Both the position numbers and the translations under genes were made by a program. DNA of 64,000 bases, from sequence record MN850601.1; one strand, given 5' to 3'. The notes beneath the pieces were generated by a model. That model did no database searches. It was not told where the DNA came from and saw nothing but the letters and a program-made list of their open reading frames with translations. Within the stretch, counting starts at the first letter, position 1. Each line of letters begins with the position of its first letter. The DNA is from Escherichia phage inny. Of this stretch, positions 16,414-28,234 are shown piece after piece.

Positions 16414-16680
16414 TTACTCCGCAATCTGAGCCATGAATTCACGTAGTTCAGAAAAACCTCCTACGTGGGTTAGCTGTTCACCATCTTCCACAAAAATCTG
16501 AGGAAATGTGCGTGGTAGAACACCTGTTTTCTCTAAAACCAGATTCTGAATCTGATCTAAAGAATAGTCTTCATCTAAGGTAAGATATTTAAAATCCTGT
16601 TCACGCTGTTCTAGTAGAATCTTAGCGTTAGTGCAGAAAGGACAATTTGGTTTACCGTAGATAATAAAATTCATTTTCAC
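16414..16680 (-). CDS. nrdC: glutaredoxin (NrdC-like, CPFC active site)
   Basis: FIIYGKPNCPFCTNAKILL and GGFSELREF resemble T4 NrdC glutaredoxin. Confidence 0.8.
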   Translation of the reverse strand: MKMNFIIYGKPNCPFCTNAKILLEQREQDFKYLTLDEDYSLDQIQNLVLEKTGVLPRTFPQIFVEDGEQLTHVGGFSELREFMAQIAE

Positions 16681-17507
16681 TCCTTGTTTAAAAGTATAGT
16701 TAAAGTTCTTACAATACCGCTATCAACACTTCGCGGATTTAAAGTAGGATCTGTTTTTAAATAAGATGTTGCTGGTCTGACTGCTTTGGAATTATAGGTT
16801 GAAGCAGATACAGGATTAACTGTAACAGATAAATCTATAACAAGAAATATCTTTCGTGCAAAATCATACCAAGAAATATAATCTGCACCTGCATAGTGTA
16901 CAACTTTACTATTTACACCATCTTTTACAAGTTTAAAAATTGTTTCTGCAAGATCAGGTGCATAAGTAGGACATGACAAATGATCACATACTACATTAAA
17001 TTCTTTTTGACCACCGTTGTAGCGTTCCAACATAGTTTTCAAAAAGTTATGTCCAAATTCACTATAAACAGAAGCTGTTCTGATAATAAGTGCTGTAGGA
17101 CAAACTGTTTGTACTAAAGTTTCACCTAATTGTTTACTGTAACCGTAGGTGTTCAAGGGGTTTGTTTTACTATCTTCTGTGCCAGCAACATGCCCATCAA
17201 AAACATAGTCTGTTGAAATATGTACAAACTGTATCAGTAAATCATTACATGCTTTGGCAATGTTTGTTGCACCGTATGCATTAACATTTATACAGGTGTT
17301 AACATCTTCTTCAGCTTTATCTACTGCCGTGTAAGCCGCACAATTCACAACAACATCAGGCACATGCTGTACAAGACTATTCATAACATCTTTAAAGTTG
17401 GTAATGTCTACATCACTTGCTTCAATCAAAATAACATCTTCGGGCGCAACTTTTGCCAAAGACTGTCCTAATTGACCTTTTGAACCAAAGATTAAAAATT
17501 TTGTCAA
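16677..17507 (-). CDS. rmlD: dTDP-4-dehydrorhamnose reductase
   Basis: N-terminal LIFGSKGQLGQSL Rossmann motif, VDKAE, STDYVFDG as in RmlD/RfbD. Confidence 0.8.
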   Translation of the reverse strand: MTKFLIFGSKGQLGQSLAKVAPEDVILIEASDVDITNFKDVMNSLVQHVPDVVVNCAAYTAVDKAEEDVNTCINVNAYGATNIAKACNDLLIQFVHISTDYVFDGHVAGTEDSKTNPLNTYGYSKQLGETLVQTVCPTALIIRTASVYSEFGHNFLKTMLERYNGGQKEFNVVCDHLSCPTYAPDLAETIFKLVKDGVNSKVVHYAGADYISWYDFARKIFLVIDLSVTVNPVSASTYNSKAVRPATSYLKTDPTLNPRSVDSGIVRTLTILLNKE

Positions 17508-18058
17508 AATATGATCTCCTTTAGTGTTTTGGCTTGCTGATCTTTTTGTGACAAGATAGGTTTAAAATTAATATCATTAAAGATTAAATCAAAACCCCAA
17601 TCAATATTGATATCTGGATCATTCCACGCAAGACTACACTCTGAAGTCGGATCGTAATATTCTGTACATTTATATTCAAAATCAGCAATGTCACTAATCA
17701 CAACAAAGCCATGAGCGAAACCAGGAGGAATCCAAAATTGTGTTTTATTCTTTTCAGATAAGAGAACACCTACCCATTCTCCAAATGTTGGACTACCAAC
17801 CCTAATATCTACAGCAACATCATAAACTTCACCACGAACACAACGTACTAACTTCCCTTGTGGGTTTTTCTTTTGAAAATGAAGCCCACGTAGAACTCCT
17901 CGAATAGAACGTGAATGGTTATCTTGGACAAAGTTTTGTTTACCTATGTATTGATCATATAAAGCCTGATTAAAACTTTCTAAGAAAAAACCACGTTCAT
18001 CTCCGTAAACGTCAGGTTGAATGATCAACAAATCTTCGATTTTTGTTGCTTGAATCAT
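17504..18058 (-). CDS. rmlC: dTDP-4-dehydrorhamnose 3,5-epimerase
   Basis: GDERGFFLESF signature of RmlC cupin epimerases. Confidence 0.85.
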   Translation of the reverse strand: MIQATKIEDLLIIQPDVYGDERGFFLESFNQALYDQYIGKQNFVQDNHSRSIRGVLRGLHFQKKNPQGKLVRCVRGEVYDVAVDIRVGSPTFGEWVGVLLSEKNKTQFWIPPGFAHGFVVISDIADFEYKCTEYYDPTSECSLAWNDPDINIDWGFDLIFNDINFKPILSQKDQQAKTLKEIIF

Positions 18059-18070
18059 TTAATTCCCCCT

Positions 18071-18940
18071 TTATTTTAATTTAAGTAAATACTTACCGTA
18101 GTCTGTTTTACTTAAAACCTCTCCAGAACTTTTTACAGAGTCTAAAGTAATCCATTCATTTTTAAAAGCAATCTCTTCCAGGCATGCAACCTTCATACCT
18201 TGTTGCTTTTCTATTGCATGAACAAATTGAGATGCTTCCATAAGACTTTCATGTGTTCCTGTATCCAGCCAAGTGAAACCTCTTCCTAGTTTACAGACAC
18301 GTAAAGCCTTTTCTTTCCAGTACATCTCATTTATATCTGTAATCTCTAACTCCCCTCTAGCAGAAGGTTTAACGCTTTTAGCTTTCTGTACAACAGAATT
18401 ATCGTAAAAGTACAAACCTGTGATTGCATAGTTGCTTTTTGGTGCTTTTGGTTTTTCTTCAATACTCACCACTGTACCTTCAGAATCAAACTCAACAACA
18501 CCAAATCTTTCAGGATCATTTACGTGATACCCAAAAATATTAGCTCCACCATTCTTTTCAATATGTTCTTTAGCAGAATCTAAAATGCTACCAAAACTCT
18601 GACCAAAGAATAAATTATCACCTAGCACAAGTGCTACAGAATCTTCACCAATAAAGTTCTCACCAATAATAAACGCTTCTGCTAAACCTCTTGGGCTATC
18701 CTGTATTGCATACTGTAGGGAAATACCAAAAGAAGAACCATCACCTAGAAGATTTACAAAATTAATTTGATCTTCTGGTGTTGTAATTATTAGTATTTCC
18801 CTAATTCCAGAAAGCATTAGGACAGAGAGTGGATAATAAATCATAGGCTTATCATAAATTGGTAATAGTTGTTTACTAACCCCTTTAGTAACTGGGTAAA
18901 GTCTTGTTCCACTACCACCTGCTAAGATAATACCTTTCAT
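18071..18940 (-). CDS. rmlA: glucose-1-phosphate thymidylyltransferase
   Basis: [39 protein letters not shown] nearly identical in pattern to enterobacterial RfbA/RmlA. Confidence 0.9.
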
Positions 18941-18948
18941 ACTCCTCC

Positions 18949-19938
18949 TTAAACTTTATTTTCCCACCACTCTTTGTTATCTACATACCAATCAACGGTT
19001 GAATAAAGTTTTTCTTCAAATGTGCCTTTAGCTTTCCACCCTAATTCCTTTTCAATCTTATAAGGATTCACTTCGTATCTTAAATCATGTCCAGGTCTAT
19101 CTGTAACCATTTCAATGAGGCTACAAGCATCTGTTTCAGATGGATACACCGCATCCATATAATCACAAATCATATAGATTACATCAATATTAGTTCTAGG
19201 GTTTCTGCTCCCAATATTATATGTTTCTCCAGATTTGCCTTTAGTTACTACTAGGTGTAATGCTTCTGCGTGATCGTCAACGTATAACCAATCTCTTACT
19301 TGAAGACCATTGCCATAAACAGGGATTGGTTTATGCATCAAGATATTTGTTATCGTTTTAGGTATTAGTTTTTCTGGATGATGATATGCTCCAAAATTAT
19401 TTGAACAATTTGTTATAACTGTCGGAATACCATAAGTACGATGCCATGCTCTTACCAAATGATCGCTTGCAGCTTTAGATGCAGCATATGGACTACTTGG
19501 TTTATAAGGATTCTGTTCTGTAAACGGATAATCCCCTTCTTCCATATCACCATACACTTCATCTGTTGAAATATGATGGAACATTTTAAGATTTGATTTA
19601 TCTCCCATTAAACGAACAGCCTCTAGAAGATTAAATGTTCCAACAATATTTGAATTTATAAAAACACTCGGTGATGCTATTGAATTATCTACGTGACTCT
19701 CTGCTGCAAGATGCATTATATAATCTGGATTAACATCTGCCACAATCTTAGCAGTTAACTGCGCATTTGTCAAGTCAACACGACAAAACTTTACATTAGG
19801 TGTTTCTGATAAATTTCTAGGGTCTGAAGCGTAACCCCATTTATCTATAACGTAAATATCATTCTTAGTATTTTTAGCCAGGAAACGAACTACTGCACTT
19901 CCAATAAAGCCTAAACCACCTGTTACTAAGTATTTCAT
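18949..19938 (-). CDS. rmlB: dTDP-glucose 4,6-dehydratase
   Basis: [21 protein letters not shown]-binding motif; SDR-type YxxxK region; size 329 aa as RmlB. Confidence 0.9.
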
Positions 19939-20817: not shown

Positions 20818-21004
20818 ACTTGGCTACACCATTAACTATAATATGACCGCAAGACAGAACTCCTAGCCAATGATCACCATTCTTTTTTAAACGTTTACCG
20901 TAAACATCACAGAAACCATTCTGCAATTCGGAAGCCTCGTAAGAGGCTCCCTTTTCGAAAACGTCTTTGAAGTCAGAAATTAATCCAACACAAAGTAGTT
21001 TCAT
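20786..21004 (-). CDS. hypothetical protein (72 aa)
   Basis: ORF track; start overlaps nrdB stop. Confidence 0.4.
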   Translation of the reverse strand: MKLLCVGLISDFKDVFEKGASYEASELQNGFCDVYGKRLKKNGDHWLGVLSCGHIIVNGVAKFEIIKGEKDD

Positions 21005-22089
21005 TAAAAATCTAACTCCTCATCGTCACTTACATCTTTATTTGCTGAATTCAGTTTGTAAGCTGTAATTTGGATCTCCTGTGCTGCTGCTTGAATTTGA
21101 TCTGGATTTAACCAAACATCCATCCAAGGCAGTGGACTTTTCTTCGGTGCACGGAATTTGTGTTTCATTTTCAGTCTGCGATAGATAGGCGCGGCATTGA
21201 AGTAAACCCAAAGTTTGAACAACTCTGCGTTACCACCAACGATAACCCTTCCTTCACTAAACAGATAGTCACACCAATCTTCCTCTTGTCCAACTACCGT
21301 ATCAAGAATTTCTGTCAGAACGTCGATATTGTCTTCGTATACTTTTCTCCAAACAGGATCTTTCAGCAGTGCATCAATAATAGCATAATCCATTTTAACG
21401 TGCAATAGTTCATCCAACATAATTTTTTGAATGAGTTTAGCTGCACCTACAAACAATTGCTGCTCTGCTAAGGCAAATGTTGCAGCAAAAGAGGAGATGA
21501 ACTGAATACCTTCCAGACCGATAAGTGCAATCATTCCTTTCAGGATTAGTAGACGAAGGTTATCATCCTTCTCAATCAGACCTAGAGCATATTTATGTCC
21601 TGCCTCTGCCAGATCACTCATTATCTCTTCAACTATACCCATCCTCTGGAAGATTCTTTCATTCTCCATGATCTGATCGATAACTTCATTTGGATTAGGG
21701 ATACACTGACGAATAATTTCAGAATATGTCAAAGCGTGTAAAACTTCCATTTCTGATTGCTTCATCATCATTGCACATGCTTCGTTGTTGCTTAAAAATG
21801 GTGCAAACAAAGTGATGATTGATTTAGCAAGTGAATCATTTTCCCATTGGAAAGATAGGTTTTTGATCATAACATCATAGTTGCTTTTAGAACAAGCTAC
21901 GAAATCTTTTCGTGTCTGATCTAAGTTTACTTCGTTTTCATCCCAATCTTGCTGTTTTTGTAGTTTGTACAGACGATGCATTTCTGGGTATGTTACGTTA
22001 ATAGAATCAAAAATACCTAACTGTTCTCCCAAAAATACAGGGTAGAAACCTTCTTTGTAAGTGTCGTTGTATAAATTAATTGCTGCCAT
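21004..22089 (-). CDS. nrdB: ribonucleotide reductase class Ia beta subunit
   Basis: Size and ferritin-like pattern; paired downstream of NrdA; EGIQFISSFAATFALAEQ helix typical of R2. Confidence 0.85.
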   Translation of the reverse strand: MAAINLYNDTYKEGFYPVFLGEQLGIFDSINVTYPEMHRLYKLQKQQDWDENEVNLDQTRKDFVACSKSNYDVMIKNLSFQWENDSLAKSIITLFAPFLSNNEACAMMMKQSEMEVLHALTYSEIIRQCIPNPNEVIDQIMENERIFQRMGIVEEIMSDLAEAGHKYALGLIEKDDNLRLLILKGMIALIGLEGIQFISSFAATFALAEQQLFVGAAKLIQKIMLDELLHVKMDYAIIDALLKDPVWRKVYEDNIDVLTEILDTVVGQEEDWCDYLFSEGRVIVGGNAELFKLWVYFNAAPIYRRLKMKHKFRAPKKSPLPWMDVWLNPDQIQAAAQEIQITAYKLNSANKDVSDDEELDF

Positions 22090-22411
22090 TTAAATCCTCC
22101 ACAATATCACACATTGCTTTTATTGTATCAATGTGTTCTCTCTCCATACCATTCTCTATGTAAGCCTTCTCTAATGCGTTCCATACACTCTTTGTGAGTA
22201 GTACAGTAACTTCTCCCTCATATCTTGCCCTGGTTAAAGCATACCAGGTAGCTTCGGGATCATTGGAAGCCCATATTTCAACACTGGAAAATTGAAAACC
22301 TGCAATATAATGACAACACCAATCGAATGTAAAATCTTTACTATCTACCAGTGTATAATTGCCCCAACGCCTTTGTGGTGTTGCCCCAGGTAATACAACT
22401 AATGTAGGCAT
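22076..22411 (-). CDS. hypothetical protein between nrdA and nrdB
   Basis: ORF track 22076-22453 trimmed to ATG (MPTLVV) with AAGGAGG RBS. Confidence 0.45.
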   Translation of the reverse strand: MPTLVVLPGATPQRRWGNYTLVDSKDFTFDWCCHYIAGFQFSSVEIWASNDPEATWYALTRARYEGEVTVLLTKSVWNALEKAYIENGMEREHIDTIKAMCDIVEDLNGSN

Positions 22412-22419
22412 ATTCCTCC

Positions 22420-22444
22420 TTAAGAAATGGGGGACAAAGCCCCC
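22420..22444 (-). terminator. hairpin/terminator-like element downstream of nrdA
   Basis: GGGGG-ACAAAG-CCCCC hairpin followed on - strand by ATTTCTT; overlaps RBS of next gene, may attenuate. Confidence 0.4.
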
Positions 22445-22452
22445 TAGCTTCA

Positions 22453-24714
22453 TTACATCTTACAAGCCTCACAACCGGATTCTTCATCCTCTTGAGCGAG
22501 TGAGGTTGCTGATTTTGTTCGACTATTTAGATAGTACAAAGATTTACCACCAAGTTTTGCAAACTGAAGGATATATTGCATTTCTGATTTAATGGATAAA
22601 CGACCACCTTCCATCTTAGAATAGTCAATCCACTTGTCACATGATGCACCTTGATCTAAGAATTTAGTCAATAGTCCATATGCTTCAGCCATATCTTTAT
22701 CTGGCGTATCCCAAGCCGATTGGTAAATATCTTTTAGTTTATCGTAATCTGGCACAATAAACAAGACATTACCTTTTTGGCTTTGTTTATAAACTATAGT
22801 ATCACGTACAGGATACACAGAGTTAGTCGTATTACTTACAAGACTACTAGACTCATTCGGAGCAATAGCTGCTAATACACTATTTCGGATACCACCTTGT
22901 GCAATTATATCTTGTCGTAAACCTTCCCAATCCATTTTAAGTTTAAAATTGCCAATATCGTCTACAGCTTTAGCGTAGGTATCAATAGGCAACCATCCTT
23001 CAGGCCATTTGGTTTTATGCATCCATTCTGCATTACCTTTCTCTTTTGCCAAACGAAGAGAAGCTCTTGCTAACCAGTAATAATGTCTTTCTGCTAATTC
23101 GTGAATTAGTTTTTTGCCGTAAGGATCTGAATAAGTAACAAAATTACTTGCCAGATAATGTGCCAGGTTTGTAATACCCACACCGATAGACCTACGTGCT
23201 TTAGCAGTGATTTCGTTATGTTTAAACGGATACTGCATTGTTTCAATAACATTATCAATAGTTAGAACGGTATAATATGCAACATCTTCATATTCTTCTG
23301 GTGTAACGCGACCAGCTACAATAGAAGACAGGAAGCATAATGCCAATTCTTGATCTTCTGTATTCTCACCTGTGAAAAGATCAGTCATACTGTGAAATGC
23401 TTTCGTAGGTAAGAAAATTTCTTGGCACAAGTTTGACTGATAAATAACATCCTTAAACGGAGTATGCTTATTAGCATTATCCGCAAAGAACATATAAATA
23501 CGTCCTGTCTCTGCTCTTTGTGTAATAATTTCTGCCAGAAGATCTCGTGCTTTTACAAACTTCTTCTTAATTCGTTTGCGACTAACTTTTTCATATACTT
23601 CTTCAAACTCTTCCTCGCTTTTATAAAGCGCCTCATAGAGTTCTGGTGCTTCGTCATAACTGACTAGCATCCAATCTTTACCTTTTGCTGCACGGCGCAG
23701 GAAAGCATTGTTTACTACAATAGAGTAATCAAGTTTATCTACTCGTTTTTCACTAACAGTAGTTGGGTTTTTCAAACGTACCAGATCTTCAAAATCAGGT
23801 TCTAATATTGTAAACGTTACTGTTGCACTTCCACCACGACTTGCTTGTTTTGATGCTCCAACACTTGTTTCCATCCATTTCAGATATGGTAAAAGACCAC
23901 CGTGAACGATACGGTTGTTCTTAACACCTTGTCCTGTAGCACGGGTTTGGAGGTTAACACCAATACCTGCATTATTCAATGTATACTCATGAGCAAGATA
24001 GTTAGCAATTGCTAAAGATTCTGCTGTATCGTCTGCTCTAAACAGACAACAAGAAGCACTACCTTTAATCTTAGTACGCAAAGTTGTTAAATAAGGTGAT
24101 GGTAAATTAATCTTAAGATCACTTACGTAGGTATATAGACGTTTAATGTCTTCTACTCTGCGATCTTTTGGTTGGATTTCCATTACCTTCATTGCTACAC
24201 CAATGAATAAAAATTGTGGTGATTCAAAAACCACATCATTGATCGCATCTTTCACAAGATACTTATCAACCATCTGGCGCAGTACGGAATAACCATAAGT
24301 TAGGTTTTTATCATGATTGATAATTTTACCAATCTCAATAATTTCTTCTTCTGTATAATCCATTTTCCCCCAATAGCCTTTACTTACAGACATATTGTAG
24401 AAATCCAGGAGGGAGGGGATATTGTGATATCCCCCATGAGCCTGTTTATAGATCATACCAAGAAGTAACCGACCTGCCATATCACTATATGCCTGATCTT
24501 TCTTATCAATACATGCTGCTATCATAGCTTTATGTAAATCACGAGTAGGCACACCGTCGTAACAACGTTTAACAGCTTCGAGTTCAATTTCAGACCAATT
24601 TAATTTACCAGCAGCAAACTCTGACCATTTACGAAGTTTTTCTGGATTAAATTCTTCTTTCTTGCCGTTTGTTTTTGTTACATAACGGATAGATTTGCTT
24701 AGATACTGAGTCAC
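22453..24714 (-). CDS. nrdA: ribonucleotide reductase class Ia alpha subunit
   Basis: 753 aa; conserved blocks NxCxE-like SNLCQEI, C-terminal CEACKM redox cysteines, GGIRNS as in NrdA. Confidence 0.9.
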   Translation of the reverse strand: MTQYLSKSIRYVTKTNGKKEEFNPEKLRKWSEFAAGKLNWSEIELEAVKRCYDGVPTRDLHKAMIAACIDKKDQAYSDMAGRLLLGMIYKQAHGGYHNIPSLLDFYNMSVSKGYWGKMDYTEEEIIEIGKIINHDKNLTYGYSVLRQMVDKYLVKDAINDVVFESPQFLFIGVAMKVMEIQPKDRRVEDIKRLYTYVSDLKINLPSPYLTTLRTKIKGSASCCLFRADDTAESLAIANYLAHEYTLNNAGIGVNLQTRATGQGVKNNRIVHGGLLPYLKWMETSVGASKQASRGGSATVTFTILEPDFEDLVRLKNPTTVSEKRVDKLDYSIVVNNAFLRRAAKGKDWMLVSYDEAPELYEALYKSEEEFEEVYEKVSRKRIKKKFVKARDLLAEIITQRAETGRIYMFFADNANKHTPFKDVIYQSNLCQEIFLPTKAFHSMTDLFTGENTEDQELALCFLSSIVAGRVTPEEYEDVAYYTVLTIDNVIETMQYPFKHNEITAKARRSIGVGITNLAHYLASNFVTYSDPYGKKLIHELAERHYYWLARASLRLAKEKGNAEWMHKTKWPEGWLPIDTYAKAVDDIGNFKLKMDWEGLRQDIIAQGGIRNSVLAAIAPNESSSLVSNTTNSVYPVRDTIVYKQSQKGNVLFIVPDYDKLKDIYQSAWDTPDKDMAEAYGLLTKFLDQGASCDKWIDYSKMEGGRLSIKSEMQYILQFAKLGGKSLYYLNSRTKSATSLAQEDEESGCEACKM

Positions 24715-24725
24715 TTCCTCTCCTA

Positions 24726-24986
24726 TTAATTGTGCATGTTTAGAACATCTACATCATAACCGCCACGCATCTCATTATATAAGCCATTTGCGTATAGAAA
24801 ACCTTCAAAATGATCTATACCTTCAAAACCTTTTGCCTTTGCTTTGCGGTCTGCTTCTTGTCTTTTTGGGGATAATCTTTTAGATGTATCAAGAATAACT
24901 GTTACATTGCAACCTAATGTTTCATCAAAATAGACTTCAATTTCACAGCCTTCATATTTATTACTTTCTGTCATTTGGCCTCTCAA
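24726..24986 (-). CDS. hypothetical protein (86 aa)
   Basis: ORF track. Confidence 0.4.
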   Translation of the reverse strand: MRGQMTESNKYEGCEIEVYFDETLGCNVTVILDTSKRLSPKRQEADRKAKAKGFEGIDHFEGFLYANGLYNEMRGGYDVDVLNMHN

Positions 24987-25397
24987 TTAGAATTCAGAAT
25001 CATCATCTCGTGATGGATCATGTTCATTTCCGAAGTCTTCCATTTTGATATGAGAGCTACCCCAACCTGTAAAATCTTCTTCTCCAAAGTGCAAAATATC
25101 TACACCTTGATAGATTCGCTTATATTTATAGTCTTGTCGAACTGGGAAAGTATACAATGTAGTATTTGCAAACACCACACGTCGATTGTTGTTACTACGA
25201 ATATTAACACCACGTTCTACTGTATAATGTCCATCGGTAGACATACCAAGCATTACTAATGCTGCTCGCAATGTAGTGTTATGATACTCGTGAGGAATTT
25301 TTCCTCCGTGTTTTTTAGCCATTTCTTTCCAGATCGGTGTAGCCTTAATGGTAGACATACTTACGGTCGCCCAAATGGTTGTATTAATTAGTGACAT
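24987..25397 (-). CDS. hypothetical protein (136 aa)
   Basis: ORF track. Confidence 0.45.
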   Translation of the reverse strand: MSLINTTIWATVSMSTIKATPIWKEMAKKHGGKIPHEYHNTTLRAALVMLGMSTDGHYTVERGVNIRSNNNRRVVFANTTLYTFPVRQDYKYKRIYQGVDILHFGEEDFTGWGSSHIKMEDFGNEHDPSRDDDSEF

Positions 25398-25494
25398 AAA
25401 TTCTCCTTCTCTCTTTTAAGGAGAGCATAGCTCTCCTAACGTTAGCCTATACTACACGAATCTCAATTAAAAGTCAACTATAATTTTAAGTTGA

Positions 25495-26466
25495 TCACCA
25501 TTTTGTATGGTTAGTCAAAAGTTGACGATGTTGAATCCAACCACAGAAGTTTCCACTCCACAAACGATGTTTACGATCCATGTGTGTAATACCTTCTTCC
25601 CAAGAAGTAGGGAACGGAGGAATATTAATACCACCTTTCTGTTGTTTTAATCCTGACAAATCCATTTCTTTCATTGGTGTTGCCTGGTGTTCAAACGGAG
25701 ATGCATGTACCTTTTGTCCAGACAGCAAACGAGAATAGATATCCAATGCTTTATCTTTAGTATCATTCAATTTACGATAACTTACCTGAGCGCAACAAGA
25801 AGCTGAAATAGCTTTTGCTTCCTCTTCTGTCAACATTTTCTCGTTGGAGAAGGTTTCACCCAAGAAATAACGGATCATACCAGTTTCTGGATCTCGATCA
25901 CGATTAACGTAAGGTGTATGCCATTCCCCTGGGAAAAGAAGATATGGTTCAGAAGATTCATACAGTTTTTTAATTTCTTTAGCAAGAGCCTCAATAGTAG
26001 GATCTGCATCAGCATCTACACGCAACCACAAGAAGTTTTCTAGCTCTGTAGTGGTTACTACAGTCTTCATACGCTGGAATGGTTCTAGTAGGCGGTTTGC
26101 AACCTGTTTATGATAACCAGCAAGGGCAAACTCTTCTGCAAAACGTGCAGCACTTAGTGCAGCCAAGTCCCACCATTCTTTTGCAGTGTAACCTGCATCA
26201 ATCAGGGCATCGTGATCTGTGCCTTTATCTTGCATACCTGGTTGGTTAGCACCAAAACGATAAGGACGTGCTGGAGATTGCCGTACCATTTCAATTAGAG
26301 TTTTAACAGGGATAGCTCGACTTGATGCGGCATTACGAGAAAACAAACGATGCGTCATCAATTCAGAGTGAATGATTCGAGGATATTCAAGTTCAAAGGT
26401 AACAATATCCTTACCTTCAGATGTTTGAGAGTGTGCAATAATTTTTGCTGAAATAGAGTTTGTCAT
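25495..26466 (-). CDS. ThyX-like flavin-dependent thymidylate synthase family protein
   Basis: ELMTHRLFSRNAASSRAIP resembles ThyX RHRxxSxxxxSxR motif (first Arg replaced by Thr); sits in dNTP module. Confidence 0.55.
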   Translation of the reverse strand: MTNSISAKIIAHSQTSEGKDIVTFELEYPRIIHSELMTHRLFSRNAASSRAIPVKTLIEMVRQSPARPYRFGANQPGMQDKGTDHDALIDAGYTAKEWWDLAALSAARFAEEFALAGYHKQVANRLLEPFQRMKTVVTTTELENFLWLRVDADADPTIEALAKEIKKLYESSEPYLLFPGEWHTPYVNRDRDPETGMIRYFLGETFSNEKMLTEEEAKAISASCCAQVSYRKLNDTKDKALDIYSRLLSGQKVHASPFEHQATPMKEMDLSGLKQQKGGINIPPFPTSWEEGITHMDRKHRLWSGNFCGWIQHRQLLTNHTKW

Positions 26467-26475
26467 TATTTCTCC

Positions 26476-27066
26476 TTAAGGTAGTAAAATACTTTCAATT
26501 TCTTCCCACTGATTATCTAAACCAGTGATAATTACATTAGGAAGTTTCTTTAACTCTTCCAAGTATGGATCTTCGTAAATAGTGTTGAAATATATTTTCA
26601 ACGTTTCATCTGGAAATAGGACAAGATTTTCAGCCCTATCGTCAATAGTTACGTCGCAAGGTAATAAGTATTTTTCTTTTGTTGCGAAAAAGCCATTACC
26701 AGATGTTCTACTAAAGTCCACTTTATCTAAAGATCGTGTTACGTGTCTATATTTAGAACTAAGGTGTCCACCCTTAGTGTGGCTTGCTATAGATATATTA
26801 GCTCCATTTGCAATTATACGATGAACAACATCTGTACTATTAGGTACTACTCCCATAGTATCATATAGATGTTGGTTATCCCAAAAAGAGTAAGGATCTA
26901 CACCAAATTGCTTTTTAAAATCAGGAAAATATTTCGTAATATCATAATGCACAGTCTTTTGTGTCTTATCAAACTTGATATTAGATCTACTTACCGCATT
27001 TAACCAACTCAACCATTCTATATCGGCAGGAGCTATTACTAAATCCCAATCACATACTAGACGCAT
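26476..27066 (-). CDS. HAD-superfamily phosphatase (5'(3')-deoxyribonucleotidase-like)
   Basis: ORF trimmed to ATG with AGGAG RBS; N-terminal LVCDWDLV (HAD DxDx[TV]), later IDDRAEN (motif IV). Confidence 0.45.
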   Translation of the reverse strand: MRLVCDWDLVIAPADIEWLSWLNAVSRSNIKFDKTQKTVHYDITKYFPDFKKQFGVDPYSFWDNQHLYDTMGVVPNSTDVVHRIIANGANISIASHTKGGHLSSKYRHVTRSLDKVDFSRTSGNGFFATKEKYLLPCDVTIDDRAENLVLFPDETLKIYFNTIYEDPYLEELKKLPNVIITGLDNQWEEIESILLP

Positions 27067-27613
27067 TATTTCTCCTGTTATAACATTTTCTACACATTGT
27101 TTCGTAAATGTCTTCTCCTCCAATAACAATCTGTTCTTTAGAGTCGATAAGTCTAGCATTGAAAATAGCTTTTCTTCCACATTTACAAATGCTTTTCAAT
27201 TCTGTAATTGAATCTGCTATGGCTAATAACCGTTCAGAACCTTCAAACAATTCTGTAGCAAAATCTGTTTTAAGCCCATAACAGAATACAGGAATATCGT
27301 AATTATCTACCACATCTCCAAGAATGTCAACCATATCTTTAGTTAGGAATTGTGATTCGTCCACAAATACTGCATCTACTGGATTTTCTTTAAGTTGTGT
27401 ATAAATTTCCAGCATATCTTCTTTTGTTTTAACTGGTTTTGCTTCCTCTTTAATACCTATCCTAGAAGCAATAGCACAACCAGATCTGGTATCTAAAGCT
27501 GAAGTTAAAAGAAGAACTTTCATATTTCTTTCTTTATAGTTCCAAGCTGTTTGTAGCAGATGTGTGCTTTTACCACTGTTCATCGGACTATATCGGAAAT
27601 AAAGTTTAGCCAT
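27050..27613 (-). CDS. tdk: thymidine kinase
   Basis: YSPMNSGKST P-loop, VDESQF, C-terminal zinc-binding CKCGRKA...CRKC typical of Tdk. Confidence 0.9.
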   Translation of the reverse strand: MAKLYFRYSPMNSGKSTHLLQTAWNYKERNMKVLLLTSALDTRSGCAIASRIGIKEEAKPVKTKEDMLEIYTQLKENPVDAVFVDESQFLTKDMVDILGDVVDNYDIPVFCYGLKTDFATELFEGSERLLAIADSITELKSICKCGRKAIFNARLIDSKEQIVIGGEDIYETMCRKCYNRRNNASSM

Positions 27614-27658: not shown

Positions 27659-28234
27659 TTATTTCTCTTCGTCAAGAAGAATTTTTACTATTTGTTTTCT
27701 TCGCTTACTTACTGTACTTTCTGGTGAAATTCCGCGCTTCGTTAGCCAATTTTTATCCTTTTTAGACTGGCATAAAGCTATCGCTTCCTTCTCCGCTTTT
27801 GCTTCCCTGAATGTCATATCGTGCTTGTCAGCATAAGCCAGGATAGCGTTACACTGCTTACAAACTACACGCAGGTCGTCTTCTGTTACGTACAATAGGC
27901 GTAAAACAAAACTTGGGATATCTTCATAACAGGTTAATGTACCTGCTGCATTAATATGGTCTACTTGAAAGTCTTTCATACCTCCTGTATGTCCACACAA
28001 TTCACACTTACAATTCCAAACCTGTTTCGGTTTGCCTGTTTTCTTATCTAAAACTATATTTCCATCTTTATCCAACCTATCCGCTTTAAATCGTACAGAT
28101 TGGATCTTTTTTATCTTATTCGGGTGTCTCACCCATGCTTTCCTTAAGCAACCCCTTAAATATGTATAAAAGGCTGCTTGAGTTTTCCAAGGTGTTCCAT
28201 CTCCCCAAATAACTTTAGGTTCTTTATTTTCCAA
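27659..28234 (-). CDS. HNH endonuclease (homing-endonuclease-like)
   Basis: CELCGH...DHINAAG...CKQCN matches HNH ββα-metal motif. Confidence 0.6.
   Translation of the reverse strand: MENKEPKVIWGDGTPWKTQAAFYTYLRGCLRKAWVRHPNKIKKIQSVRFKADRLDKDGNIVLDKKTGKPKQVWNCKCELCGHTGGMKDFQVDHINAAGTLTCYEDIPSFVLRLLYVTEDDLRVVCKQCNAILAYADKHDMTFREAKAEKEAIALCQSKKDKNWLTKRGISPESTVSKRRKQIVKILLDEEK

What the first reader, a model, noticed from the sequence alone, without database searches (positions are those of the whole stretch)
21004..27613. Deoxynucleotide module with an atypical ThyX-like protein
NrdA, NrdB, a ThyX-family protein, a HAD nucleotidase-like protein and thymidine kinase are clustered. The ThyX-like protein carries THR-x3-S-x6-R where canonical ThyX has RHR, so it may be a divergent thymidylate synthase or a paralogue making a modified pyrimidine. 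Combined with the dTDP-sugar operon this raises the possibility of thymidine hypermodification.
Basis: inference. Interest (0 to 1): 0.4.

Follow-up and report, generated by a model that had tools for sequence, protein, structure and literature searches.

The report
Circularly permuted phage ThyX thymidylate synthase
This is the ordinary DNA-precursor gene block of a well-known E. coli phage group, and its odd ThyX-like gene is most likely a working thymidylate synthase from a large phage-only subfamily with reordered protein segments, not a sign of exotic DNA bases.

Summary
The gene cluster is real. On the minus strand lie TK, an NT5C-type HAD deoxyribonucleotidase, a ThyX-family protein, two unknown ORFs, NrdA, a small ORF and NrdB, with rmlBACD and a glutaredoxin gene just downstream in the direction of transcription. 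The window is 98-99.8% identical to E. coli Justusliebigvirus phages (Paula, alia, PaulScherrer/Bas60).

The Thr-for-Arg motif is real (T38-H-R-x2-S43-x4-S48-x-R50; spacing x2, not x3). It is not peculiar to this phage. It is the signature of a very large phage subfamily: Thr in 121 of 127 diverse representatives, and homologues in 1034 phage genomes including rV5, ICP1, PaP1 and N4-like phages, at least some of which lack an annotated rml operon.

The subfamily is circularly permuted relative to canonical ThyX. The canonical N-terminal helices and the HxxPFEH motif sit C-terminal to the core.

The hypermodification reading is not supported:
- This is the only thymidylate synthase candidate in the genome.
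- TK and RmlA imply a normal dTMP/dTTP pool.
- No homologues of phage M6 thymidine-hypermodification proteins were found.
- The published BASEL study reports this phage group as exceptionally restriction-sensitive.

Best reading: a functional flavin-dependent dTMP synthase of an uncharacterised, permuted phage subfamily. Interest is modest.

The parts
27050..27613 (-). Thymidine kinase (187 aa)
   Evidence: Pfam TK E 1.2e-54, full-length match. phrog_592 E 9e-73.
26476..27066 (-). HAD-superfamily 5'(3')-deoxyribonucleotidase-like protein (196 aa), motif I D6-x-D8-x-V
   Evidence: The ATG at 27066 is preceded by AGGAG, and the same start is annotated in PaulScherrer. Pfam NT5C scores 23.2 bits, just below the 24.8 cut-off. 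The AF2 model has pLDDT 95. The best Foldseek PDB hits are the deoxyribonucleotidase-like protein 3bwv (TM 0.84, E 1e-8) and human mdN/cdN.
25495..26466 (-). ThyX-family protein (323 aa), circularly permuted subfamily; putative flavin-dependent thymidylate synthase
   Evidence: Pfam Thy1 scores 36.9 bits but covers only residues 22-170, matching profile positions 59-186. TIGR02170 scores 35.5 bits against a cut-off of 87.9. The AF2 model has pLDDT 83, and every listed Foldseek PDB hit is a ThyX. AGGAG precedes the ATG.
26314..26355 (-). Variant ThyX motif T38-H-R-L-F-S43-R-N-A-A-S48-S-R50-A51 (canonical RHRxxSxxxxSxRY)
   Evidence: Read directly from the sequence. Invariant in 40 close homologues. 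Thr is present in 121 of 127 diverse representatives, with H39, S48, R50 and A51 in 126 of 127.
25687..25707 (-). H254-A-S-P-F-E259-H260, the counterpart of canonical T. maritima H53-E-T-P-F-E58-H59, here placed C-terminal to the core
   Evidence: hhalign aligns query 219-263 with T. maritima 20-62, E 7e-6. Motif order is reversed in 108 of 108 family members against 0 of 120 canonical ThyX.
24987..25397 (-). Conserved ORF of unknown function (136 aa)
   Evidence: phrog_15711 E 2e-89, function unknown. No Pfam family above threshold.
24726..24986 (-). Conserved ORF of unknown function (82-86 aa)
   Evidence: phrog_15807 E 1e-56, function unknown. No Pfam hit.
22453..24714 (-). Class Ia ribonucleotide reductase large subunit NrdA (753 aa)
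   Evidence: Pfam Ribonuc_red_lgC E 7e-99, lgN E 3e-11, weak ATP-cone. phrog_84 E 2e-266.
22076..22453 (-). Small conserved ORF between nrdA and nrdB (111-125 aa), function unknown
   Evidence: phrog_17458 E 1e-63, function unknown. No Pfam hit.
21004..22089 (-). Ribonucleotide reductase small subunit NrdB (361 aa)
   Evidence: Pfam Ribonuc_red_sm E 1.5e-33. phrog_86 E 5e-105.
16677..19938 (-). Neighbouring rmlB-rmlA-rmlC-rmlD operon (dTDP-L-rhamnose pathway). It uses dTTP, but no link to DNA modification was shown.
   Evidence: Pfam GDP_Man_Dehyd/Epimerase for RmlB. NTP_transferase E 2e-77, dTDP_sugar_isom E 2e-73, RmlD_sub_bind E 1e-73. Annotated the same way in PaulScherrer.
16414..16680 (-). 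Glutaredoxin (88 aa), probable reductant for NrdAB
   Evidence: Pfam Glutaredoxin E 9e-12.

Best explanation
The region is the deoxynucleotide-supply block of a Justusliebigvirus (phi92-like, Stephanstirmvirinae) E. coli phage.

Inferred roles of the parts:
- NrdAB, with the nearby glutaredoxin, reduces ribonucleotides.
- The 323-aa ThyX-family protein is the phage's only thymidylate synthase. It is inferred to make dTMP from dUMP by the flavin-dependent route: NADPH reduces FAD, methylene-tetrahydrofolate donates the carbon through the flavin, and tetrahydrofolate is released. This route needs no DHFR, and the phage has none.
- TK salvages thymidine.
- The NT5C-like HAD phosphatase trims deoxynucleoside monophosphate pools.

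The protein belongs to a very large, essentially phage-borne ThyX subfamily that is circularly permuted. The segment that opens canonical ThyX (helices alpha1-alpha2 and the H53xxPFEH59 motif) lies after the core, at residues 219-260. The core, carrying the ThyX motif, comes first.

In this subfamily four canonical loop residues are systematically replaced: R74 to S, R78 to T, E86 to A and Y91 to A. Their roles are presumably taken over by subfamily-specific near-invariant residues (R30, R/K44, K120, H183, R231, R314).

Shown here: gene identities, fold, permutation, residue conservation, absence of other thymidylate synthase genes and of hypermodification genes. Inferred: catalytic activity, the compensating residues and the role of the phosphatase.
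For: Identity of the phage:
- 99.8% DNA identity to phage Paula, and 54 phage records covering at least 80% of the region.

Membership of the ThyX family:
- Pfam Thy1 is above its gathering score.
- The AF2 model (pLDDT 83) gives only ThyX structures among the 50 listed Foldseek PDB hits, with E about 1e-5 and target TM-scores of 0.44-0.59.
- BFVD hits are phage thymidylate synthases.

Conservation of catalytic residues across 127 representatives from 50%-identity clusters:
- H39 = T. maritima H79
- R40 = R80
- S43 = S83
- N45 = N85
- S48 = S88
- R50 = R90
- R125 = R147
- N144 = N169
- R149 = R174
- H254 = H53
- E259 = E58
- H260 = H59

Permutation:
- With the native sequence order, hhalign gives two separate alignments: query 17-176 to T. 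maritima 57-201 (E 4e-7), and query 219-263 to T. maritima 20-62 (E 7e-6).
- An artificially re-permuted alignment gives one alignment covering T. maritima 20-197, with E 1.5e-10 and score 76 against 54.
- On the re-permuted sequence, Pfam coverage extends from profile positions 59-186 to 13-186.
- The ThyX motif precedes HxSPFEH in 108 of 108 family members and in 0 of 120 canonical ThyX.

Only thymidylate synthase in the genome:
- No ThyA, Dut or FolA by annotation or by tblastn across the whole PaulScherrer genome.

Relatives:
- PaP1 gp110 is 52% identical, carries the same motif and lies two genes upstream of nrdB and nrdA.
- PaP1 gp110 is highly expressed, and thymidine rises during infection (PMC5377924).
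- PaP1 DNA is cut by NarI, NotI and FspI as predicted from its sequence (PMC3652863).

Restriction sensitivity of phi92-like phages: PMC8594841.
Against: - No member of this subfamily has, to my knowledge or in the searchable literature, been assayed or shown to complement thyA.
- R78, replaced here by Thr, is one of the residues that hydrogen-bond dUMP directly in T. maritima ThyX (PMC3498832).
- The canonical Y91, E86 and R74 are also replaced.
- The protein fails the NCBIfam thyX equivalog cut-off (35.5 against 87.9 bits).
- It has no significant sequence hit to any solved structure (E 0.4 with a profile).
- The permutation rests on profile alignment and on the secondary-structure order of a predicted monomer. 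I could not superpose coordinates or model the tetramer with FAD and dUMP.
Confidence: 0.75

Rival explanations
1. The ThyX-like protein is a paralogue that makes a modified pyrimidine nucleotide, for example 5-hydroxymethyl-dUMP. The base is then decorated with rhamnose from the neighbouring dTDP-rhamnose pathway, and the HAD phosphatase acts as a dTMPase that excludes thymine. 2020.
For: - Four canonical substrate-loop residues, including the dUMP-contacting R78, are replaced.
- A deoxyribonucleotidase-like phosphatase lies next to the gene.
- A complete rml operon lies in the DNA-metabolism region.
- Four glycosyltransferase-like genes occur elsewhere in the genome.
- The idea is published as speculation (PMC7552041; PMC10844046).
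Against: - The same motif occurs throughout a subfamily present in 1034 phage genomes. PaP1, a member, has no annotated rml genes in the region read.
- The uracil- and phosphate-binding residues R50, R125 and R149, and the flavin- and folate-site residues N144 and H254, are near-invariant.
- There is no other thymidylate synthase that could make the dTTP RmlA needs.
- A TK in the same operon would refill the dTMP pool.
- phmmer finds no hit to M6 dUMP hydroxymethylase, 5-HMUDK, AADT/aGPT-Pplase, PLP enzyme, radical-SAM enzyme or HD hydrolase.
- phi92-like phages are 'exceptionally susceptible' to type I-III restriction-modification systems (PMC8594841).
- All known dUMP and dCMP hydroxymethylases belong to the ThyA family (PMC8989533).
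Confidence: 0.05
2. The protein has the ThyX fold but a shifted substrate or role. It could act on UMP or another nucleotide, as does the ThyX homologue PolB of polyoxin biosynthesis. Or it could be a poorly active nucleotide-binding protein, with host ThyA supplying the dTMP.
For: - R74, R78, E86 and Y91 are replaced, and some of these contact the nucleotide.
- It is not an equivalog by NCBIfam.
- E. coli has its own ThyA (established knowledge), so the phage gene need not be essential.
Against: - About 25 positions are invariant or near-invariant across roughly 40-50% sequence divergence, including every residue central to the flavin-dependent chemistry.
- The gene is tightly linked to nrdAB both here and in PaP1.
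- It is highly expressed, and thymidine rises, in PaP1 infection.
- Thousands of lineages retain it: 4963 clusters at 50% identity.
Confidence: 0.12
3. This rival concerns the reason for the clustering and does not exclude the best explanation. The thymidylate genes sit next to rmlBACD because the phage needs extra dTTP for dTDP-L-rhamnose as well as for DNA. The rhamnose would go onto a glycan or protein through the phage glycosyltransferases, not onto DNA.
For: - RmlA uses dTTP (established pathway knowledge).
- The genes lie on one strand, closely spaced, in the order TK-NT5C-ThyX-NrdA-NrdB-(5 small ORFs)-rmlBACD-glutaredoxin.
- Glycosyltransferase-like genes are present in the genome.
- The phages are restriction-sensitive, which argues against DNA as the target.
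Against: - The acceptor of the rhamnose is unknown.
- ThyX-Nrd modules occur without annotated rml genes in PaP1, so the adjacency may simply reflect an early/middle metabolic gene block.
- The promoter and terminator scans were no better than shuffled sequence.
Confidence: 0.3

Closest known systems
Canonical flavin-dependent thymidylate synthase ThyX/FDTS (T. maritima TM0449, PBCV-1 A674R, M. tuberculosis ThyX; Pfam PF02511)
   Same: - Same fold: only ThyX structures appear among the listed Foldseek hits.
- Same core motif register.
- Conserved counterparts of H53, E58, H59, H79, R80, S83, N85, S88, R90, R147, N169 and R174.
- Linked to RNR genes, and DHFR is absent, as expected for a ThyX-using genome.
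   Different: - The segment order is circularly permuted: the canonical N-terminal alpha1-alpha2 and His motif lie C-terminal to the core.
- About 100 residues longer, with an extra N-terminal strand and a roughly 60-residue C-terminal extension carrying the invariant R314 and near-invariant S304 and N306.
- R78 to T, R74 to S, E86 to A and Y91 to A.
- Fails the TIGR02170 equivalog cut-off.
- No solved structure and no biochemical study found.
Phage dNTP-supply modules such as T4 nrdAB-td-frd-tk and the T5 nucleotide-metabolism genes
   Same: A clustered phage-encoded RNR, thymidylate synthase, thymidine kinase and a deoxyribonucleotidase that boost and balance DNA precursors.
   Different: It uses a ThyX-type rather than a ThyA-type synthase. 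It has no DHFR, dCMP deaminase or dUTPase. It is adjacent to a dTDP-rhamnose operon.
Thymidine hypermodification pathways of phages M6, ViI, SP10 and PhiW-14 (PMC8989533)
   Same: Phage-encoded pyrimidine C5 chemistry sits next to nucleotide-pool enzymes, with a phosphatase that could in principle act on dTMP.
   Different: Those pathways start from a ThyA-family dUMP hydroxymethylase and need 5-HMUDK plus aGPT-Pplase/AADT. None of these is detectable here. They also give restriction resistance, whereas this phage group is restriction-sensitive.
Mammalian mitochondrial and cytosolic 5'(3')-deoxyribonucleotidases (mdN, cdN; Pfam NT5C) paired with thymidine kinases
   Same: The HAD protein has the DxDxV motif and its best structural matches are to mdN, cdN and bacterial 3bwv. 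It is encoded next to a TK, echoing the known kinase/nucleotidase substrate cycle.
   Different: Only 13-17% sequence identity. It scores just below the Pfam NT5C cut-off. Its substrate is unknown.

Membership tests
ThyX / flavin-dependent thymidylate synthase (Pfam PF02511, TIGR02170) | Significant match to the Pfam Thy1 model above the gathering score | tested here: met
   36.9 bits against a cut-off of 24.8, E 4e-9. The match covers only profile positions 59-186.
ThyX / flavin-dependent thymidylate synthase (Pfam PF02511, TIGR02170) | Reaches the NCBIfam thyX equivalog cut-off (same function assumed) | tested here: not met
   TIGR02170 scores 35.5 bits against a cut-off of 87.9.
ThyX / flavin-dependent thymidylate synthase (Pfam PF02511, TIGR02170) | ThyX motif RHRxxS(x4)SxR(Y) | tested here: inconclusive
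   The motif is T38-HRxxS-x4-SxR-A51. H, R, S, S and R are kept. The first Arg is Thr in 121 of 127 representatives and the Tyr is Ala in 126 of 127.
ThyX / flavin-dependent thymidylate synthase (Pfam PF02511, TIGR02170) | Other active-site residues (T. maritima H53, R147, N169, R174) | tested here: met
   H254, R125, N144 and R149 are invariant or nearly so in 127 representatives. The positions were mapped by hhalign.
ThyX / flavin-dependent thymidylate synthase (Pfam PF02511, TIGR02170) | ThyX fold | tested here: met
   The AF2 model has pLDDT 83 and pTM 0.83. All 50 listed Foldseek PDB hits are ThyX, with target TM-scores of 0.44-0.59.
ThyX / flavin-dependent thymidylate synthase (Pfam PF02511, TIGR02170) | Canonical linear order: His motif (H53xxPFEH) N-terminal to the RHR motif | tested here: not met
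   The order is reversed in 108 of 108 family members and in 0 of 120 canonical ThyX. hhalign and Pfam on re-permuted sequences agree.
ThyX / flavin-dependent thymidylate synthase (Pfam PF02511, TIGR02170) | FAD-bound homotetramer that converts dUMP to dTMP and complements thyA | not testable with these tools
   This needs biochemistry or genetics. I found no published assay for any member of the subfamily.
Thymidine hypermodification system (5-hmdU-based; PMC8989533) | ThyA-family dUMP hydroxymethylase | tested here: not met
   There is no tblastn hit to E. coli ThyA (E > 7) and no phmmer hit to M6 gp58 in the window or in the complete PaulScherrer genome. These are single-sequence searches, so very remote homologues could be missed.
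Thymidine hypermodification system (5-hmdU-based; PMC8989533) | [quoted passage not shown] | tested here: not met
   phmmer with M6 gp54, gp51 and gp55 against six-frame ORFs gave no hit at E <= 10. This is a single-sequence search, so very remote homologues could be missed.
Thymidine hypermodification system (5-hmdU-based; PMC8989533) | Depletion of dTTP/dTMP (dTTPase, dTMPase) without thymidine salvage | tested here: inconclusive
   A deoxyribonucleotidase-like HAD protein is present. However, a TK overlaps it and RmlA requires dTTP. There is no hit to the M6 HD hydrolase.
Thymidine hypermodification system (5-hmdU-based; PMC8989533) | Virion DNA resistant to restriction or containing a non-canonical T | not testable with these tools
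   Literature only: phi92-like BASEL phages, including PaulScherrer (99.1% identical over this region), are 'exceptionally susceptible' to restriction-modification systems (PMC8594841). I found no nucleoside analysis.
NT5C 5'(3')-deoxyribonucleotidase (HAD superfamily) | HAD motif I DxDx(T/V) and the NT5C fold | tested here: met
   D6-W-D8-L-V is invariant in 26 homologues. Foldseek top hits are 3bwv and human mdN/cdN.
NT5C 5'(3')-deoxyribonucleotidase (HAD superfamily) | Pfam PF06941 above the gathering score | tested here: inconclusive
   23.2 bits against a cut-off of 24.8. Many homologues carry a precomputed PF06941 hit.
Class Ia ribonucleotide reductase NrdAB | Large-subunit barrel and all-alpha domains plus the small-subunit ferritin-like domain | tested here: met
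   Pfam hits at E 7e-99, 3e-11 and 1.5e-33.
dTDP-L-rhamnose pathway RmlABCD | All four enzyme families present and contiguous | tested here: met
   and the PaulScherrer annotation.

The most novel reading that the evidence does not exclude
The permuted, Thr-motif ThyX subfamily may not be a plain dTMP synthase. It could have altered chemistry or substrate handling, for example release of a hydroxymethylated product or use of a different nucleotide or reductant. That would make it the first flavin-dependent (ThyX-type) enzyme to feed a DNA base modification. In Stephanstirmvirinae this might be coupled to dTDP-rhamnose.
Probability: 0.06. Interest if true: 0.8.

Novelty: new variant of a known kind. 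Interest (0 to 1): 0.3.

Why it matters
As a gene cluster this is routine. It is annotated in more than 100 near-identical phage genomes, and the suggested thymidine hypermodification is unlikely.

What has some value is the recognition that the 'putative thymidylate synthase' of many important phage groups forms one circularly permuted ThyX subfamily. The groups include rV5-like, phAPEC8/phi92-like, ICP1, Pakpunavirus and N4-like phages. In this subfamily a direct dUMP-binding arginine is replaced, there is no solved structure and I found no reported assay.

If the subfamily is active, it shows how the three-subunit ThyX active site tolerates both re-wiring and loss of R78. It would also be a useful natural test case for work on ThyX mechanism and inhibitors, and for correct annotation of phage nucleotide metabolism.

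Tried and rejected
- **Sequence search of solved structures.** phmmer of the ThyX-like and HAD proteins against PDB sequences gave no hits. A profile search gave only E of about 0.4 to T. maritima ThyX, so fold comparison and profile-profile alignment were needed.
- **Promoter and terminator scan, 16-30 kb.** Counts equalled those in shuffled sequence, so the transcription units remain undefined.
- **Small ORFs.** Pfam at relaxed thresholds on the three small ORFs gave nothing usable. The IMP_cyclohyd hit (15.9 bits) is chance level.
- **Literature.** I found no paper on ThyX permutation or on this subfamily.
- **Papers not held.** Liu & Yang 2004 ('distinctive ThyX motifs', J Bacteriol 186:6316), Ulmer 2008, Koehn 2012 and Schwarzer 2012 could not be read. 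Prior description of the variant motif therefore cannot be excluded.
- **Scan of 185,579 cellular genomes.** Only one MAG contig was found. The scan is pattern-limited, so it covers close relatives only.
- **dCMP-methylase idea.** I rejected this because the counterparts of the arginines that (from my own knowledge) contact the uracil ring, R50 and R149, are invariant.
- **Structure-level tests not possible.** I could not superpose structures, build a tetramer model, or see which residue replaces R78.

Full report
**What the window is.**
The flagged 6.6 kb is 99.8% identical to Escherichia phage Paula. It is 98-99.5% identical to dozens of other E. coli phages of the genus Justusliebigvirus (Stephanstirmvirinae, phi92-like), including alia, muut and the BASEL phages PaulScherrer (Bas60) and EmilieFrey. 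In those records the genes are annotated as RNR alpha and beta, 'putative thymidylate synthase', thymidine kinase and hypothetical proteins.

**Check of the observation.**
All genes lie on the minus strand. Pfam and PHROGs confirm the following:
- NrdB at 21004-22089.
- NrdA at 22453-24714.
- A Thy1/ThyX-family protein at 25495-26466.
- An NT5C-like HAD protein within ORF 26476-27180.
- Thymidine kinase at 27050-27613.

The HAD gene really starts at the ATG at 27066, six bases after an AGGAG. The same start is annotated in PaulScherrer. This gives 196 aa beginning MRLVCDWDLV, which is HAD motif I.

An AlphaFold model built from 26 homologues has pLDDT 95. Its best PDB matches are a bacterial deoxyribonucleotidase-like protein (3bwv, TM 0.84) and the human mitochondrial and cytosolic 5'(3')-deoxyribonucleotidases. 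The 'HAD nucleotidase-like' call therefore holds at fold level, although Pfam NT5C is just under its cut-off (23.2 against 24.8 bits).

Three conserved small ORFs of unknown function are interleaved: 22076-22453, 24726-24986 and 24987-25397. Downstream in the direction of transcription lie five small ORFs, then rmlB, rmlA, rmlC, rmlD and a glutaredoxin gene.

The motif is T38-H-R-L-F-S43-R-N-A-A-S48-S-R50-A51.

**The Thr motif marks a subfamily and is not specific to this phage.**
- Among 40 close homologues the motif is invariant.
- An exhaustive phmmer search of 1.84 billion cluster representatives found 4963 clusters at E <= 1e-3 and 1498 at E <= 1e-30.
- In 127 full-length representatives, mostly 40-55% identical to the query, Thr occupies the first motif position in 121 and Arg in only 2.
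- In the same set, H39, S48, R50, A51, K120, R125 and N144 are present in 126 of 127.
- R149, H183, S229, H254 and R314 are present in all 127, and H260 in 126.

tblastn against 50,697 phage records finds the family in 1034 genomes. They include rV5-like Vequintavirinae, phAPEC8, Vibrio cholerae phage ICP1, Pakpunavirus (PaP1, JG004, PaoP5) and N4-like podophages, together with Caulobacter, Cellulophaga and Flavobacterium phages. In PaP1, the one relative whose gene table I read, no rml genes are annotated in the 47 kb examined. This breaks the proposed link between the motif and the dTDP-sugar operon.

A pattern-based scan of one genome from each of 185,579 bacterial and archaeal species found a single MAG contig. 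The close family is therefore essentially viral.

**The unusual feature: a permuted ThyX.**
Pfam Thy1 matches only residues 22-170, corresponding to profile positions 59-186 of 191. That leaves about 150 C-terminal residues unexplained. This tail contains 'ISASCCAQVSYRK...KVHASPFEHQ', which resembles the N-terminal alpha1 helix and the H53-ETPFE-H59 motif of T. maritima ThyX.

I built one alignment of the 127 representatives and one of 120 canonical ThyX sequences (my recalled T. maritima sequence matched the database entry at 100%). I then ran hhalign:
- In native order there are two separate significant alignments. Query 17-176 aligns with T. maritima 57-201 (E 4e-7). Query 219-263 aligns with T. 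maritima 20-62 (E 7e-6).
- When the query alignment is artificially re-permuted (175-323 followed by 1-174), there is a single alignment covering T. maritima 20-197, with E 1.5e-10 and score 76 against 54.
- Pfam on a re-permuted sequence likewise extends coverage to profile positions 13-186 and gains 3 bits.
- A simple motif count agrees. The THR...SxR motif precedes HxSPFEH in 108 of 108 single-domain family members, whereas RHR follows HxxPFEH in 120 of 120 canonical proteins.

The AlphaFold model has pLDDT 83 and pTM 0.83. Its secondary-structure order is as follows:
- An extra N-terminal strand, residues 6-14.
- Strand 20-29 and helix 30-37, matching canonical beta3 and alpha3.
- A low-confidence substrate loop, residues 41-50.
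- The helical core with strand 132-139.
- A beta-hairpin, residues 188-201.
- Helices 224-234 and 237-249, matching canonical alpha1 and alpha2.
- The His motif, followed by a conserved extension of about 60 residues.

This order is what a circular permutation with added termini predicts. Foldseek against the PDB lists only ThyX structures (PBCV-1 4fzb, T. maritima 1o26 and others), with E about 1e-5 and target TM-scores of 0.44-0.59. BFVD returns phage thymidylate synthase models.

I could not superpose coordinates, so the permutation is shown at the sequence-profile and predicted-topology level only.

**Active-site audit.**
Mapped through the hhalign alignments, the family keeps counterparts of T. 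maritima H53, E58, H59, H79, R80, S83, N85, S88, R90, R147, N169 and R174.

It systematically replaces R74 (Ser), Q75 (Glu), R78 (Thr), E86 (Ala) and Y91 (Ala).

Basta et al. 2012 list R78, R80, S88 and R90 as forming direct hydrogen bonds to dUMP in T. maritima ThyX (PMC3498832). Loss of R78 is therefore a real departure. The family-specific near-invariant basic residues (R30, R/K44, K120, H183, R231, R314) are candidates to compensate. That is inference.

From my own knowledge, R174 and R90 contact the uracil ring. Invariance of their counterparts argues for a uracil nucleotide substrate.

**Test of the hypermodification idea.**
- *Gene content.* The complete genome of PaulScherrer (99.1% identical over this region) has no annotated ThyA, dCMP or dUMP hydroxymethylase, DHFR, dUTPase or dCMP deaminase. 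tblastn with E. coli ThyA, Dut and FolA finds nothing. The ThyX-like gene is thus the only possible source of phage-made dTMP. The absence of DHFR fits a ThyX-type cycle.
- *Pool logic.* The operon also encodes TK, which makes dTMP. The neighbouring RmlA needs dTTP. Both are at odds with eliminating thymidine nucleotides.
- *Known pathway components.* The defining components of known thymidine hypermodification are summarised in PMC8989533. I tested them with the phage M6 proteins gp51-55, gp58 and gp59, fetched. phmmer against all six-frame ORFs of the window and the PaulScherrer genome gave no hit at E <= 10.
- *Phenotype in the literature.* Maffei et al. [quoted passage not shown] PMC10844046 repeats the point.
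- *A relative.* PaP1 gp110 is 52% identical, has the same motif and lies two genes upstream of nrdB and nrdA. The gene is highly expressed and thymidine rises during infection (PMC5377924). PaP1 DNA is cut by NarI, NotI and FspI as predicted (PMC3652863).

One caveat applies. Simple 5-hmU does not block many restriction enzymes (my own knowledge), so restriction sensitivity alone excludes bulky hypermodification better than it excludes hmU. The gene-content arguments cover that gap only partly.

**Most likely mechanism.**
The block supplies DNA precursors:
- NrdAB with glutaredoxin reduces ribonucleotides. A class III RNR is encoded elsewhere in the genome.
- The permuted ThyX methylates dUMP to dTMP with FAD, NADPH and methylene-tetrahydrofolate.
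- TK salvages thymidine.
- The NT5C-like phosphatase, by analogy with the mdN/TK2 and cdN/TK1 substrate cycles, trims dUMP, dTMP or other dNMP pools.

The adjacency to rmlBACD may simply reflect one long early/middle metabolic transcription block. Alternatively it may reflect a shared demand for dTTP. The rhamose acceptor is unknown, and the genome has four glycosyltransferase-like genes outside the window.

**Novelty and verdict.**
- The cluster itself is already known and annotated.
- The rhamnose-on-DNA speculation is already in print (PMC7552041) and is contradicted by phenotype data.
- The circular permutation and the systematic loop substitutions of this very large phage ThyX subfamily appear undescribed. 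I found no paper, no curated family model and no solved structure.
- I could not read Liu & Yang 2004, whose title mentions 'distinctive ThyX motifs', so priority is uncertain.
- I rate it a new variant of a known kind, of modest interest. It is a structural-enzymology curiosity and an annotation point, not a new biological system.

Noticed in passing
window 21004-27613 compared with GenBank MG065639 and MG065645: Records named 'Campylobacter phage A150' and 'Campylobacter phage A145' (host C. jejuni) are 98.3% identical to this E. coli Justusliebigvirus region. The host or organism label looks doubtful, perhaps through contamination or mislabelling.
   Followed up: no
proteins P0133, P0141, P0144, P0161, P0203, P0207, P0222, P0232, P0237, P0246, P0248, P0252: About 10% of the listed family representatives are 520-680 aa and show two matched stretches. 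In the regex scan they show at most one of each motif (THR...SxR and HxSPFEH), sometimes none. They look like tandem fusions of two permuted ThyX units with one degenerate half. This may bear on how the permutation or the oligomer evolved.
   Followed up: partly
window 27659-28234 (-): An HNH endonuclease ORF (phrog_1985, E 9e-66) sits immediately upstream of the TK gene. It is probably a homing endonuclease inserted at the edge of the nucleotide-metabolism block.
   Followed up: no
PaulScherrer MZ501100 47580-50756 (L002/L003), outside the window: Four glycosyltransferase or 'disaccharide synthase'-like genes lie next to the primase/helicase gene. They are the most obvious candidate users of phage-made dTDP-rhamnose, but the acceptor is unknown.
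   Followed up: no
L008 4001-4930 (MAG Bacteroidota contig JASBTZ010000015.1): This is the only hit for close relatives of the permuted ThyX among one genome from each of 185,579 species (48% identity). The 60-kb contig may be a phage binned into a MAG.
   Followed up: no
window 22076-22453, 24726-24986 and 24987-25397 (-): Three small ORFs are conserved inside the Nrd-ThyX block. They have PHROG families of unknown function and no Pfam domain. Their fixed positions between nrdA and nrdB and between thyX and nrdA suggest accessory roles in nucleotide metabolism.
   Followed up: partly
PaulScherrer MZ501100 (bas60_0039, 0189, 0202): The genome encodes Dam-like and other N6-adenine methyltransferases and a Dcm-like C5-cytosine methyltransferase. 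Any DNA modification by this phage is therefore more likely simple methylation.
   Followed up: no
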